From: Escherichia coli
Lineage (GTDB): Bacteria; Pseudomonadota; Gammaproteobacteria; Enterobacterales; Enterobacteriaceae
Reading direction: 5' to 3' (one strand)
NCBI RefSeq assembly: GCF_030013205.1
Contig: NZ_CP122648.1
Length of the DNA stretch: 64,000 nt
Shown here: in pieces, positions 1 to 4,614 of the stretch
Layout of the letters: the number at the start of each line of letters is the position of its first letter
How positions within the stretch are numbered: the first letter of the stretch is position 1
Position numbers: made by a program

Positions 1-3000
1 GGTCACCTTTACTCTCAGGGAAAAATTAAGCGTGCCAGAGAAAGCATCAGCACGTAGCGGTTCACAAAAAACCATCGCCAGACAGCAGACCCAGAATGGC
101 AGCGAACAGGCACCAGACAAAGGCATGAATACGCAAAGTTCGTTCTGGAAAAAAATCAATGATGCCGTTGGCTCTGGTCTGGATGCTGTTGGCATCGGGA
201 GCGTGAAAGAGGAAGGGAAAACATGAAATTGATACAACGCTGCATGATTAATGGCGAACGGGTGGAAATTGCCGATATAAGCCTTGTTCTTACCCTGAAT
301 GCTGCCGGTCGTGGCTTCATTTCTGTTAACAATCTGTCATCCGAACACAGCCTTGCCGGCGCAATGGTACAAATTGATCTCGGTCGTGACGGTGAAGCAT
401 GGCGCTATTTCTCCGGCTATATTGAGCGCGATCAACCTGCTGAAAATGGCTCACGTCGCCTTTTTATTCGTGAAGCGGCTGCTGTGCTGGATTTTGATTT
501 CCCCTGCTCCATGCAACACCCGACGTTGCGGGAGGTACTCGATAATCTGGGGCGACAAAGCGGTATCGTTTTTATCACTCCGGATGCGGATTATGCCAGT
601 ATACCAACTCCCTACATCACCCACAGCGGCAGCGGAGCACAACTGCTCAGCCAGCTGGGGCGAGCATTCAGTATCAACGATTACGTCTGGCACCCTATGC
701 CGGACGGTTCTGTATTTGTGGGAAGTGCAGCTGATTCACGATTTGCCAGCATTACAATGCCGGATATTCCGCAACAGTACACACTCGGGCAAAGCGGCGG
801 AAACAGCATCGACATCATGTTTATGGAAACTGTGCGACCGGGCGTGAACCTTCCGGCCGGGCGCATTACCCGTGTAGCCCTCAACAACGAGAAAATGACC
901 CTGACATGGGAGCGCCTTACCGCCACGGGCAGCCCTGTCTCCAAATCACCATTACGCAGACAGATGGAAACACAGTTCCCGGAACTGGCCAGCGGCACAC
1001 TACACACCAGGCTGGCGCGCGTCATTGCACCAACGGAATCCGCCACCCTGGGCGATGTGGCCGACAGCTTCCGTCCACGCTACGCCGTGGACGTGCAACT
1101 GCTCGATGAGGACGGCAACGATAAAAGCGATACGCCTGTTTACCCGGCAGTCCCACTCCCCGTCCCGATGGCTGGTAGCGAGGCGGGATGTTTTGCCTAC
1201 CCGCCGGCAGGCACCATCGTGGAAATATCTAACATTGAAGGGCGCCCGGATAAACCTGTTATCAGGCAAATCTTACCTGCTGGCCATAACCTGCCTGATG
1301 TAAAGCCCGGCGAACAACTGCAGCAACAGCGCGCAGAAGTGTTTCAGCGCGTCACGACTGACGGAAGCTGGCACAGAGAAACAGACCAGCAAATCAGGGA
1401 GCAGTCAGCCACCCGCACAATTAACAGTGATGCAGAAGAGCGCACCACAACAACCAGAACAACCACAGTACGGGCAAACGACATAACCAGTGTTCTGGGA
1501 ACCAGCAAGCTGGCGGCAGGACAAATAGAGCACCTTACTACCGGCCATTACGCGATCGCAGCCAGCGAGCATATCCAGATGGTAGCGCAGGATTTGCTGA
1601 CTAAACTCAAAGGGGCAATATCCACAATTGAGCAGGACCTGACTGAAAACGTGGGAGGCCGCAGAACATGCCGGGCGGACGGCGGTCTGAAGTTTACAGC
1701 CCCGACAGTATTTATTGGTCGCGGTGGCTCACGGGAAAAATCCGAACTTAATCTGCTGACGTTGTTGATTGATATTCTGGATCTGATTCAATTGCTGGCC
1801 ACGCACACAGCAAACCACACCCACAGCAACACTGGCGCACCAATGAACAGCGGCGAACTTGCCGCAGATGCCCTGCAGGCTACGAGCCTGCGCGAAAAAT
1901 ACGGCGACCTTATCGCCTGAGCTCCCGACATAAAACCCACATAAACGCCCCATCAAACAACGCACGGTTCCGACCGTGCGTTTTTCATATCCACCACCTG
2001 ATTAATGCGTTCTGCGTGCCATTCCGGCGCTGTATGCACACACCGCGTAAACGGTGTGACGTAAAGTGTGAGGTGACGTAAACCGCGCTACCCCCTCCAA
2101 CCCGCGGGTTTTGTGTCGAAACAGTTTTTCAGTTTTCTGCCGTGCAAAACTGACCGCCAGCCCGCGCAGCAACTGAGGAAAAAGCGAAGATCTGAAATTT
2201 CACGCTTTGAAATTTTTTGCAGTTTTCAGAGGGATTTTTACGATCTCATGAATGGCAGGAGAAAGAAAACAGGCTGATATTAAAAGAGTTTTCATACTTT
2301 ACGTGGGACAAGACGCGATCGCGAAAGGATCGCATCAAAAAATCTTCAAACAACGAAGCCAGACGCGGCGCGGCCTGCGTAAGATTGAGAGTCAAAATTA
2401 AACTGAAAAAAGGATCAATACCGCGCCTCGATCGCACATGACGATCTACGCAGCAACAGGACAAAAAAACCGGCGCGAACGCCGGCGGAAGCATGTATCA
2501 AATGCGTGACTGAATAATGTCTACGGTCGGGAATTTTATATCAAAAGGCTGACAGGCCTCAACGGATTGAAACAAGGGAAAAAACCAGGCTAGAATTCGC
2601 GCGGGTGCCTTTCGGCTGATGGTCGGAGGGAATACCCGAAGGCCGGATGTGGAAAGGCCCCGGAAAACATTTCTGTTTAACCGAGGCCCTAACATATCTA
2701 CCTTAAGCAAGTGATAGGTTAGCGCCTCTCCAACAAAGGAGCAAGCGCTATGTCGCAAAAATCGCTTACGGCCATCACGTTCTGCGTGACGGTAATCCTC
2801 ATCATCTGGATGCTGCACGGCTCGCTGTGTGAAATACGGATGAGCTTCTGGGGAGCGGAGTTTGCGGCGTTCTTACAGTGTAAACAGTAAGGAAACCGCG
2901 ACGGGGGAGCAATCCCCCGTCAATCGGTTGCCAGGGTATGGTCGAAGTGGCACCCAAATTTAAATTGAGGCCCACCAGTAAGAGTGGTGGGCTTAACGCT

Positions 3001-4614
3001 TATTTAAATTTGAAAGGAACTCTTTATGAGTGAAATGGTATTTTGTCGCGGATGCGGCAAGGAAATACATAAAGATGCCACATCCTGCCCCAATTGTGGA
3101 GCACCTCAAAGAACAGCAAGTTCAAAAAGCAGAATGACAGCCGCACTACTGGCTTTCTTTTTAGGTGGTCTTGGAGCACACAAATTTTATTTAGGTAAAG
3201 TGGGGCAAGGATTCCTTTACCTTATTTTTTGCTGGACATTCATTCCGGCAATCGTGGCATTTATTGAGTTTTTTATCTATCTATGCACCTCTGATGAAGA
3301 CTTTGCCCGCAAATATGGCTAATGCCTAGTGGGCGAATCAGAATGACAAACCCGCAGCGTAAAAACTGCGGGTTTTCTTTTTGCTACCCTCACAAATGAG
3401 GACACCATACATAAGCAATAGGCATAACAGATCGATGCAATAAATCCGATCGATAAAAACGATCGATTTGTTATCATATCGGCAGCAGTAACCACACAAG
3501 AGGTGCCGCAAATGACGCAAAATGTACGATGCAAAAATTGCAACAAACTACTTGCCCGCGCCTCATTTCACTACATTGAAATAAAATGTCCGCGCTGCAA
3601 AACACTTAACCAGATAACGAGAGCCATCGAGCACCCCACACACATGAGGAGTTATGACCGTGGGGATCGCAATCCAGCACCAACCAGCACATATACCGGA
3701 ACACACTAAGGTTTATCAGACTGACAATGCCACGCTCTGTCGTGGGAATGCGCTGGAAATATTGCCGCTGATTGAGCCAGAAAGCATTGATGCCTTAATC
3801 ACTGACCCGCCTTACAGTTCGGGTGCGACACACAAGGCCGGACGCACCAACCAGGGCAGCCATGCAAAATATCTGAACGGCGAGAACCTTCACCGCTTTG
3901 ATGGGTTCGCTGGTGAAAACATGGACGCCCGTTCGTGGGCTTACTGGACACAATTATGGATGGCACAGGCACACCGTGCAGTCAGGCCGGGCGGTTATGC
4001 CCTGGTATTTACTGACTGGCGACAACTACCAGCTTTAACCGATGCGTTTCAGGCCAGTGGCTTTACATGGCGCGGCATCATTGCGTGGAACAAGGGGAGG
4101 GGGTCACGAACACCCCATACGGGGTATTTCAGGCATCAGTGCGAATACATCGTCTGGGGCAGCAAAGGCCATTTAGATAAATCGCCTTCGGGGCCGTTCG
4201 ACGGTTGCATGACGTACCCGGTTATCCCGTCAAAGAAAATGCACCCGACCGGAAAACCAGAAGAACTAATGGCGGAACTGGTCAGGACTGTGAATAGTGG
4301 CGGAACAGTCCTTGATCCTTTTATGGGGTCAGGGACAACGGGTGTGGCTGCACTGAAAGCAGGGCGAAAATTTATTGGTATAGAAACCAGTGATCATTAT
4401 TTTGAGGTAGCAGCGCAGCGGCTTCGAGAGACTATTACCACAACCATTTCGGCTACATAAGACAAAGCCCACATTTTTTTGCGGGCTTGTATATCATTAC
4501 TGATGTGGACAGTTTGTGGATGTTTATAAGAAATAAGCTAATAGAAACAATTCGTTAGCTTTACAAAAAACGCGCCCGAAGGCGCGTTGGCGATACACTC
4601 AATATAAAGGACTA

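What the first reader, a model, noticed from the sequence alone, without database searches (positions are those of the whole stretch)
1..4611. Mobile-element-like accessory segment where K-12 has pheL-pheA
In K-12, raiA is followed directly by pheL-pheA. Here the sequence just past the raiA terminator instead carries a methyltransferase, a Com-like gene, a TM2 protein gene, a Hok toxin gene and a contractile-tail hub-spike gene, all on the opposite strand to raiA. The content looks like the right end of a prophage or phage-tail-like element that continues beyond the window start. This is the only clearly non-core part of the window and the most likely place for an undescribed system.
Basis: partly seen in the sequence, partly recalled or inferred. 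Interest (0 to 1): 0.6.

Follow-up and report, generated by a model that had tools for sequence, protein, structure and literature searches.

The report
End of a P2-family prophage
The segment is the right-hand end of an ordinary 34.6-kb P2-family prophage inserted in the raiA terminator, carrying its tail spike, DNA-packaging site and a swappable accessory cassette built from known gene families, so it is not a new kind of system.

Summary
Window 1-4562 is foreign DNA that separates raiA from pheL-pheA. It carries, all on the + strand, a VgrG-like hub-spike gene, hok, a zinc-ribbon/TM2 gene, com and a DNA methyltransferase.

It is not an undescribed system. It is the right arm of a 34.6-kb P2-family (Peduoviridae) prophage with HP1/ESSI-2 gene order, complete with capsid, portal, terminase, tail, lysis, replication, cox/C and integrase genes. 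The prophage sits in the raiA/RaiZ terminator, with a 27-bp att core at attR 4563-4589. pheL lies about 30 kb beyond position 1, next to the integrase.

The unannotated, near-invariant DNA after the spike gene (about 2000-2250) is most likely the phage cos site. It aligns across the joined physical ends of three related phage genome records.

The DNA between cos and att is a variable cargo slot. Relatives carry other genes there, and the same hok-TM2-com-methyltransferase cassette occurs in classical P2-type prophages at the same site.

The com-methyltransferase unit copies the phage Mu mom operon controls: a GATC triad with identical spacing, a Com zinc finger, and a hairpin over the ribosome-binding site. 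It has described analogues in FluMu-type prophages. Only the TM2 gene has no assignable function.

Verdict: new member of a known kind, low interest.

The parts
1..226 (+). 3' end of a 191-aa baseplate-associated gene (phrog_1398), truncated by the window start
   Evidence: L001 19651-20226
223..1920 (+). 565-aa fused hub-spike (gp27-gp5/VgrG/Pvc8-like). It is the last tail gene and a homologue of HP1/HP2 orf35 and ESSI-2 gp01.
   Evidence: phrog_2258 E 2e-232; tblastn 47% to ESSI-2-type and 39% to HP2 orf35; Foldseek E 4e-16 to Pvc8/VgrG-class spikes
1959..1982 (+). intrinsic terminator of the late tail operon
   Evidence: 10-bp stem followed by a T-run; stem conserved in relatives, with paired changes
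2000..2250 (.). cos (packaging/cohesive-end) region, near-invariant noncoding DNA. Repeats: GTGACGTAAA x2 (2056-2065, 2073-2082) and TTTTCAGTTTT-type motifs (2126-2136, 2216-2226, inverted at 2399-2409).
   Evidence: alignment A2; blastn across joined phage ends E 6e-9 and 4e-5; repeats
2088..2105 (.). predicted cos cleavage segment CTACCCCCTCCAACCCGC. It corresponds to the 15-nt terminal duplication of ESSI-2 and to the adapter-abutted ends of ESSI2_ev015 and ev239.
   Evidence: inferred by homology, not mapped
2189..2446 (.). cluster of seven GATC (Dam) sites. The conserved phage backbone ends near 2416 and the variable cargo begins there.
2567..2995 (+). hok-type type I toxin locus. Promoter 2567-2596; mRNA 5' end GGGUGCC at 2603-2609; hok CDS 2750-2890; complementary 3' fbi element GGCACCC at 2949-2955; 3' hairpin 2970-2992.
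   Evidence: Rfam sok/hok leader 44.8 bits, E 7e-8, below the gathering score; phrog_251 E 2.5e-23; promoter; 5'/3' complementarity read
3026..3322 (+). 98-aa N-terminal zinc ribbon plus TM2-domain membrane protein. It is an inserted moron of unknown function.
   Evidence: Pfam TM2 5.5e-19 and Zn_Ribbon_1 5.6e-5; absent in P88, Chuche and L004; present in 93/5426 genomes
3348..3375 (+). intrinsic terminator after the TM2 gene, shared with phage P88
3430..3477 (+). com-methyltransferase control region. Three GATC sites (3430, 3448, 3461) have the same 18+13 spacing as phage Mu mom region I. They overlap a sigma70-like promoter (-35 at 3450-3455, extended -10 at 3472-3477).
3512..3709 (+). com, a Mu Com-type zinc-finger translational activator whose 3' end overlaps the methyltransferase start by 56 nt
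   Evidence: 60% identity to Mu Com, E 1e-15; phrog_13819 and phrog_6417
3634..3665 (+). RNA hairpin CCCCAC...GUGGGG enclosing the methyltransferase Shine-Dalgarno (GAGGAG) and AUG. It is the counterpart of the Mu mom translation-inhibition stem.
   Evidence: no covariation available because the copies are identical
3654..4460 (+). 268-aa orphan beta-class N6A/N4C DNA methyltransferase (DPPY motif before FxGxG)
   Evidence: Pfam N6_N4_Mtase; PADLOC MTase_II; PDB DpnA/CcrM-type hits
4465..4488 (.). hairpin just after the methyltransferase stop (terminator-like)
4504..4520 (+). two TGTGGA direct repeats 11 bp apart. These are candidate integrase arm-type sites, and a matching pair lies next to int at attL (L002 12547-12563).
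   Evidence: read; the role is inferred
4563..4589 (.). attR core ACAAAAAACGCGCCCGAAGGCGCGTTG, which is the raiA/RaiZ intrinsic terminator. The attL copy differs at one base (C to T, window-equivalent position 4583).

Best explanation
Window 1-4562 is the cos-to-attR arm of an integrated 34.6-kb temperate myovirus of the P2 family (Peduoviridae) with the gene order of Haemophilus HP1 and Cronobacter ESSI-2.

Integration. The phage's tyrosine integrase recombined attP with a 27-bp core that is the raiA/RaiZ terminator. attR keeps the host terminator intact. attL supplies a near-copy just before the pheL promoter.

Order of features, reading from the window start:
- the last tail genes, ending in a VgrG-like hub-spike
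- the late-operon terminator
- the cos site, where terminase would cut to make virion DNA ends
- a cos-adjacent slot for exchangeable accessory genes

What the slot holds here:
- A hok-type membrane toxin locus. Its inferred role is prophage retention or exclusion of other phages.
- A small zinc-ribbon/TM2 membrane protein of unknown role.
- A com-methyltransferase operon wired like the phage Mu mom operon.

Inferred control of the methyltransferase. Transcription is gated by three GATC sites (Dam/OxyR type). Translation is blocked by a hairpin over the ribosome-binding site until Com is made. The enzyme would therefore be produced only late in lytic growth and would methylate progeny DNA against restriction in the next host.

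Shown: identity, boundaries, att core, gene families, homology of the noncoding core to phage ends, and the shared control architecture. Inferred: the cleavage position, the regulation, and the biological roles.
For: Source genome and full prophage gene map.

Empty K-12 site and att core. The listed non-junction genomes match only from window 4563 onward.

Spike gene: it is the HP2 orf35/ESSI-2 gp01 homologue and the last gene before the genome end in those phages. Its fold is VgrG/Pvc8-like.

cos: the noncoding core is near-invariant while its flanks vary. It aligns across the joined ends of ESSI-2 (15-nt terminal duplication), ev015 and ev239 (sequencing adapters abut the phage ends), with E 6e-9 and 4e-5. 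No P2-type cos 19-mer is present in the source-genome DNA examined (the left 20 kb of the prophage plus the window arm, and the int-side arm). Motifs are clustered.

Variable cargo in relatives. The same cassette occurs in classical P2-type prophages, on a plasmid and, without the TM2 gene, in phage Chuche.

com-methyltransferase: Com is 60% identical to Mu Com. The GATC triad has identical spacing and the region is about 75% identical by my hand count over 40 nt. The RBS hairpin parallels Mu. Precedent for a methyltransferase replacing mom behind com exists in FluMu, Pnme1 and Hia5 (PMC3299994).

Cos-adjacent hotspots in P2 and P4 are described in PMC9122126.
Against: cos is assigned by homology to record ends, not by mapped termini of this phage. 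Similarity outside a roughly 100-nt core is weak.

No covariation supports the RBS hairpin, because all copies are identical, and its fold z-score is only -1.5.

The methyltransferase is only about 42% identical to its next-nearest phage homologues. It was not compared directly with Hia5 or Hin1523, so its specificity is unknown.

The hok locus falls below the Rfam and NCBIfam thresholds and lacks a canonical overlapping mok ORF.

One tail-fibre-region gene is annotated as a pseudogene, so inducibility is not assured.
Confidence: 0.88

Rival explanations
1. The segment belongs to a phage-tail-like particle (tailocin, extracellular contractile injection system or T6SS-like element) rather than a phage.
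For: The last gene is a VgrG/Pvc8-like hub-spike. One related genome annotates it as a 'T6SS Vgr family protein'.
Against: The same contiguous element encodes portal, large and small terminase, scaffold, P2-type major capsid, head completion, holin/endolysin, replication endonuclease, Cox/C and integrase. It is bounded by att repeats.
Confidence: 0.01
2. hok, the TM2 protein, Com and the methyltransferase form one undescribed multi-gene defence or exclusion system.
For: The four genes are adjacent and co-oriented. They lie in a cos-adjacent slot of the kind known to hold defence genes. Relatives carry toxin and nuclease genes at the same place. The TM2 protein has no known function.
Against: The parts occur independently: hok alone (P88, L009, L010), hok plus com-methyltransferase without TM2 (L004, Chuche), and hok plus TM2 without the methyltransferase (L022). 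Each part has its own promoter or terminator signals. PADLOC finds no system. com-methyltransferase has a self-sufficient known logic.
Confidence: 0.07
3. The conserved noncoding block 2000-2250 is not cos but a regulatory RNA, a late promoter region or a replication/partition site.
For: It is GATC-rich on its right side and contains repeats and inverted repeats. No termini were mapped for this phage.
Against: It has no Rfam match. It is homologous specifically to the sequence spanning the physical ends of three related phage records. It sits where HP2 and ESSI-2 have their ends. There is no room or match for a P2-type cos near portal/ogr.
Confidence: 0.1
4. The element is a decaying, non-inducible prophage remnant whose cargo is maintained only by hok addiction.
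For: A truncated tail-protein pseudogene is annotated upstream. No phage isolate in the phage collection shares nucleotide similarity with its structural module.
Against: All other modules are intact with normal gene lengths. The att repeats are intact apart from one mismatch. cos and regulatory DNA are highly conserved across 49 genomes.
Confidence: 0.2

Closest known systems
HP1/HP2 (Hpunavirus) and ESSI-2-type (Seongnamvirus, Quadragintavirus, Evevirus) members of Peduoviridae
   Same: Same gene order: int-C-cox-rep-ogr-portal-terminase | scaffold-capsid-...-sheath(DUF2586)-tube-lysis-TMP-baseplate-fibres-orf35-like spike-cos. The virion end lies about 200 bp after the spike gene, with accessory genes between cos and attP/int.
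   Different: The spike is only 39-47% identical at the protein level. There is no nucleotide-level match of the structural module to any phage record. The early arm, int and cargo resemble classical P2-type E. coli phages such as Chuche and P88 instead, so the genome is a mosaic.
Phage Mu com-mom operon, and the com-methyltransferase operons of FluMu (hin1523), Pnme1 (nma1821) and H. influenzae biotype aegyptius (hia5)
   Same: A Com zinc-finger gene overlaps the start of the modification gene. The GATC triad has 18+13 spacing. The stem sequence CCCAC/GUGGG over the downstream start region is conserved. The operon sits at the extreme end of the phage genome. As in FluMu, a beta-class DPPY methyltransferase replaces Mom.
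   Different: The host phage is P2-family, not transposable. The GATC triad overlaps the predicted promoter instead of lying about 60-100 bp upstream. There is no Mu C activator site. Methyltransferase specificity is untested and was not compared with Hia5.
hok/sok type I toxin-antitoxin loci (plasmid R1; 'MokW-like' genes of P88 and Stx phages)
   Same: A Hok-family 46-aa toxin with the LCEIR motif, a structured leader matching the Rfam sok/hok model, and 5'-3' (tac-fbi-like) complementarity in an mRNA of about 390 nt.
   Different: Scores are below the curated thresholds. There is no canonical mok ORF overlapping hok. The TM2 gene is inserted between the fbi element and the terminator that P88 uses.
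Cos-adjacent accessory/defence hotspots of P2-like phages and P4 satellites (Rousset et al. 2022, PMC9122126; bioRxiv 10.64898/2026.02.27.708500)
   Same: A short, high-turnover slot next to cos, flanked by conserved DNA. In relatives it holds toxins, nucleases and methyltransferases.
   Different: In classical P2 the slot lies between gpA and portal. Here cos, and the slot with it, lie between the spike gene and attP. This prophage additionally has ParM/partition genes at the classical position.

Membership tests
P2-family temperate myovirus (Peduoviridae) prophage | P2-type head and packaging module (portal Q, terminase P, scaffold O, capsid N, small terminase M, head completion L) | tested here: met
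   PGAP annotation of the source genome upstream of the window; same order as ESSI-2-type Peduoviridae
P2-family temperate myovirus (Peduoviridae) prophage | Contractile tail with sheath, tube, tape measure, baseplate W/J/I and central hub-spike | tested here: met
P2-family temperate myovirus (Peduoviridae) prophage | Tyrosine integrase, C repressor/Cox switch, Ogr-type late activator, gpA replication endonuclease | tested here: met
   (annotation only; proteins not individually re-analysed)
P2-family temperate myovirus (Peduoviridae) prophage | Bounded by att direct repeats, with an empty site in other strains | tested here: met
   27-bp core with 1 mismatch; K-12 empty site; boundary at 4563 in the genome survey
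P2-family temperate myovirus (Peduoviridae) prophage | Produces infectious particles with cohesive ends | not testable with these tools
   needs induction and end mapping
cos site of HP1/ESSI-2-type phages | Sequence homologous to the region spanning the physical genome ends of related phages, in the syntenic position | tested here: met
   (E 6e-9 and 4e-5)
cos site of HP1/ESSI-2-type phages | Terminase cleavage producing defined cohesive ends at this site | not testable with these tools
   no virion DNA data for this prophage
Mu-type com-controlled DNA-modification operon | Com zinc-finger protein (CxxC...CxxC) encoded immediately upstream of and overlapping the modification gene | tested here: met
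Mu-type com-controlled DNA-modification operon | Start region of the modification gene sequestered in an RNA stem next to a Com target | tested here: inconclusive
   A hairpin is predicted and its stem sequence is shared with Mu. There is no covariation, and Com binding is untested.
Mu-type com-controlled DNA-modification operon | Cluster of three Dam (GATC) sites in the promoter region (OxyR/Dam control) | tested here: met
   Sites at 3430, 3448 and 3461, with spacing identical to Mu. OxyR binding itself was not tested.
Non-specific adenine methyltransferases of the Hia5/Hin1523 type | Beta-class N6-adenine methyltransferase (DPPY before FxGxG) | tested here: met
   Motifs read in the translation; Pfam N6_N4_Mtase; DpnA/CcrM-type PDB hits
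Non-specific adenine methyltransferases of the Hia5/Hin1523 type | Close sequence relationship to Hia5/Hin1523 and relaxed target specificity | not tested
It is not the 349-aa M.EcoGII (length read from PMC5778455); no sequence comparison was made.
hok/sok type I toxin-antitoxin | Hok-family toxin ORF | tested here: met
   phrog_251 E 2.5e-23; PGAP Hok/Gef; NCBIfam below cut-off
hok/sok type I toxin-antitoxin | Conserved hok mRNA leader / Sok target structure | tested here: inconclusive
   Rfam RF01794 44.8 bits, E 7e-8, below the gathering score of 59
hok/sok type I toxin-antitoxin | Overlapping mok reading frame coupling hok translation | tested here: not met
   The only upstream + strand ORF (2619-2714) ends 36 nt before hok
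Restriction-modification system | Cognate restriction endonuclease next to the methyltransferase | tested here: not met
   There is no further ORF between com and attR. PADLOC finds only the methyltransferase.

The most novel reading that the evidence does not exclude
The 98-aa zinc-ribbon/TM2 membrane protein, inserted as a separate moron between hok and com in a cos-adjacent hotspot, could be a previously unrecognised prophage superinfection-exclusion or abortive-infection factor. Separately, the Com-gated methyltransferase could be a P2-family counterpart of the non-specific adenine methylases that hypermethylate virion DNA.
Probability: 0.2. Interest if true: 0.4.

Novelty: new member of a known kind. 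Interest (0 to 1): 0.15.

Why it matters
Mostly it closes the question. The only non-core part of this window is an ordinary, well-bounded P2-family prophage arm.

Modest value remains in four points:
- It documents a mosaic E. coli Peduoviridae lineage with HP1/ESSI-2-type late genes and P2/P88-type int and cargo. No phage isolate in the phage collection (GenBank records as collected by INPHARED) matches its structural module at the nucleotide level.
- It places the probable cos site, and shows that the accessory-gene slot travels with cos, in line with the cos-adjacent hotspot idea.
- It shows the Mu mom control cassette (GATC triad, Com, RBS hairpin) reused in P2-family phages to drive a methyltransferase.
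- It flags a recurrent TM2 moron of unknown function as a cheap candidate for phage-exclusion testing.

Tried and rejected
- I searched for a P2-type cos 19-mer in the source-genome DNA examined (L001 and L002), allowing up to 3 mismatches. There were no hits.
- A distant blastn of the noncoding block against the phage collection found no match. Homology to ESSI-2-type ends appeared only on direct alignment.
- Small ORFs in 1921-2818 were tested against PADLOC and NCBIfam with no credible hits. The 106-aa minus-strand ORF 2498-2818 is not conserved in relatives, so I rejected it as a gene.
- An Rfam scan of 1-5300 gave only the sok/hok leader. The MicC and sraA hits have E of about 0.4-0.9 and were rejected.
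- M.EcoGII and M.EcoGIX were considered as identities for the methyltransferase. I rejected them on what the papers report (M.EcoGII is 349 aa; M.EcoGIX is plasmid-borne); no sequence comparison was made.
- Covariation support for the RBS hairpin was not obtainable because the copies are identical.
- Python access to most fetched loci failed because the files were not synced. I used the alignment tools instead.
- A literature search for TM2-domain proteins in prophages found nothing informative.
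Full report
**Observation**

- a 565-aa tail gene (223-1920)
- hok (2750-2890)
- a zinc-ribbon/TM2 gene (3026-3322)
- com (3512-3709)
- a DPPY methyltransferase (3654-4460)

The window is 100% identical to E. coli RM10740 and ETEC4079. In K-12, raiA is followed directly by pheL-pheA.

**What lies beyond position 1**

The source genome shows a contiguous phage. Immediately upstream are baseplate and tail-fibre genes, tape measure, chaperone, endolysin, holin, tube, a DUF2586 sheath, tail and head completion genes, small terminase, P2-type capsid and scaffold. 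Divergently transcribed from these are large terminase and portal.

Further on come ogr, an Rrf2 regulator, ParM/partition genes, the gpA replication endonuclease, small early genes, Cox, a repressor and a tyrosine integrase. pheL-pheA-tyrA follow.

This is therefore a prophage with a full head module, not a tailocin. pheL is about 30 kb from the window start.

**Boundaries**

I aligned the int-pheL junction, the methyltransferase-raiA junction and the empty K-12 site. They share a 27-bp core, ACAAAAAACGCGCCCGAAGG[C/T]GCGTTG. attR is at window 4563-4589.

The core is the raiA intrinsic terminator, and the annotated 3' end of the RaiZ sRNA falls in its T-run. attR keeps the host version. attL carries the single-base variant and abuts the pheL promoter TTGACA (read from the sequence).

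The distance between the two cores gives a prophage of 34,629 bp.

A junction probe shows that 124 of 5426 complete E. coli genomes carry this attR. The listed non-junction matches all begin exactly at window 4563.

Pairs of TGTGGA repeats 11 bp apart lie on both arms (window 4504-4520 and next to int). They look like integrase arm sites. This reading is an inference that partly rests on my memory of P2 attP.

**The tail gene**

Sequence methods gave only sub-threshold VgrG/gp5 OB-fold hits.

An AlphaFold model built from a 21-sequence alignment was confident for residues 1-240 and moderate elsewhere. It matched Pvc8, Afp8 and VgrG spikes over its full length (Foldseek E 4e-16 to 1e-12) and matched Mu gp44-type hubs. 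The 'hub-spike' call holds.

By tblastn the protein is the homologue of HP2 orf35 and ESSI-2 gp01. In those phages this is the last gene before the end of the linear genome.

**The unannotated block**

Positions 1921-2416 carry no gene but are conserved in 49 E. coli genomes. Positions about 2000-2245 are nearly invariant even where the flanks differ by about 10%.

The block has no Rfam match and no blastn match in the phage collection.

Because the spike homologues sit about 200 bp from genome ends, I joined the ends of three related records:
- ESSI-2 has a 15-nt duplication, CTACACCGCACCCGC, at both ends.
- ESSI2_ev015 and ev239 have Illumina Nextera adapter sequence abutting the same point.

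Window 2070-2167 aligns across these junctions with E 6e-9 and 4e-5. HP2 has its end 196 bp after orf35 and its int 700 bp inside the other end.

No P2-type cos 19-mer occurs in the source-genome DNA examined, and the portal-ogr-Rrf2 spacers are under 70 bp.

I conclude that 2000-2250 is the cos region, with the cut near 2088-2105. Repeated GTGACGTAAA and TTTTCAGTTTT motifs flank it. The position of the cut is inferred, not mapped.

**The cargo**

Beyond about 2416 the relatives diverge in content:
- hok-com-methyltransferase
- hok, a 129-aa gene, then com-methyltransferase
- a 208-aa protein, a YafO-family toxin and an ATP-dependent nuclease, followed by a truncated methyltransferase
- hok-DUF4875
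- hok plus a RuvC-like gene

Some of these prophages sit at other chromosomal sites.

The exact hok-TM2-com-methyltransferase cassette, with the same raiA attachment, also follows gpD-ogr in classical P2-type prophages and occurs on a 129-kb plasmid. Phage Chuche has hok-com-methyltransferase-int, and P88 has hok only.

This is a high-turnover slot next to cos, as described for P2 and P4 (PMC9122126; bioRxiv 10.64898/2026.02.27.708500). The difference is that cos and the slot lie between the spike gene and attP in this lineage.

PADLOC recognises only an orphan type II methyltransferase, and no restriction gene is present.

**com-methyltransferase**

Com is 60% identical to Mu Com across the zinc finger. 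The com ORF overlaps the methyltransferase start by 56 nt.

Upstream, three GATC sites (3430, 3448, 3461) have the same 18+13 spacing as the three Dam sites of Mu mom region I. The surrounding 40 nt are about 75% identical to Mu by my hand count, and the arrangement is conserved in Chuche and other prophages. Here the triad overlaps a predicted extended -10 promoter.

The methyltransferase GAGGAG and AUG lie inside a CCCCAC...GUGGGG hairpin whose stem sequence aligns with the Mu stem at the mom start. All available copies are identical, so covariation cannot be assessed.

Established knowledge of Mu (summarised in PMC3299994; OxyR/Dam control is from my own knowledge of Bolker and Kahmann 1989) gives the likely logic:
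- transcription is sensitive to Dam methylation and OxyR
- translation is unlocked by Com
- expression is late

Whether this enzyme is similarly relaxed is untested. It is a beta-class enzyme. It is only about 42% identical to the nearest other phage homologues. It does not appear to be M.EcoGII or M.EcoGIX, judged from what the papers report about length and location.

**hok and TM2**

The hok locus has:
- a promoter at 2567-2596
- a leader matching the Rfam sok/hok model, below threshold at E 7e-8
- a 5' GGGUGCC element complementary to GGCACCC at 2949-2955
- a Hok-family ORF

It has no canonical overlapping mok ORF.

The TM2 gene is a discrete insertion relative to P88, Chuche and L004. It is present and highly conserved in 93 of 5426 genomes. 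It belongs to PHROGs of unknown function, and I found no informative literature. Its role remains a guess, either membrane-level exclusion or a lysis-timing accessory.

**Verdict**

The finding is real but ordinary. It is the cos-attR arm of a mosaic P2-family prophage in the raiA terminator, carrying accessory modules from known families. It is a new member of a known kind.

The lineage's structural module has no nucleotide match among sequenced phage isolates. The cos assignment and the Mu-style control of a P2-family methyltransferase are useful annotations rather than discoveries.

Noticed in passing
L002 3081-5032 (source genome, between gpA and ogr/portal): The prophage carries ParM, a partition/stability protein and an Rrf2 regulator at the classical P2 gpA-portal hotspot. 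Together with hok this looks like a plasmid-style maintenance kit. The same cargo cassette, next to P2-type tail genes, sits on the 129-kb plasmid pCREC455-3 (L021).
   Followed up: partly
L006 3621-6516; L007 6622-10120; L008 6622-10103: In related prophages at the same raiA site, hok, TM2 and com are replaced by a 208-aa protein (annotated as 'SufA' in L007 and L008, as hypothetical in L006; the SufA label looks wrong to me), a YafO-family toxin and an ATP-dependent (OLD-like) nuclease. Only a 3' remnant of the methyltransferase is left. This is a candidate defence cassette.
   Followed up: no
L013 1-55 and L017 239-300 (RefSeq NC_049395.1 and NC_049392.1): The ESSI2_ev015 and ESSI2_ev239 phage records contain Illumina Nextera/P7 adapter sequence at their termini. 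The left end of ev239 also continues into apparently unrelated sequence. This is record contamination, although it usefully marks the physical DNA ends.
   Followed up: partly
window 2455-2528: A minus-strand terminator-like hairpin (2469-2486 plus a T-run) and about 45 nt upstream of it are almost invariant in all hok-bearing relatives, even where the hok leader has diverged. They are absent from P88. No conserved ORF or promoter explains this stretch.
   Followed up: partly
window 2189-2446: Seven GATC sites fall within about 260 bp to the right of the cos core, several of them in CGATCG or GGATC contexts. ESSI-2 has GGATC motifs in the corresponding place. This may indicate Dam-sensitive packaging or regulation.
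   Followed up: no
window 4563-4589 and L003 1082-1245: The att core coincides with the raiA terminator and with the annotated 3' end of the RaiZ sRNA. At attL the core abuts the -35 TTGACA of the pheL-pheA promoter. At attL the terminator copy carries a stem mismatch and faces the integrase gene.
   Followed up: partly
L001 14616-15074: One tail-fibre-region gene of the prophage is annotated as an internally truncated pseudogene. The fibre genes are about 84-89% identical to those of unrelated phages (phiP27, an Actinobacillus phage), which indicates recent fibre-module exchange.
   Followed up: no
window 5123-5215: A weak Rfam sraA-like hit (25.7 bits, E 0.93, far below the gathering score) ends in a strong terminator hairpin between raiA and bamD. 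It is probably just the bamD terminator.
   Followed up: no
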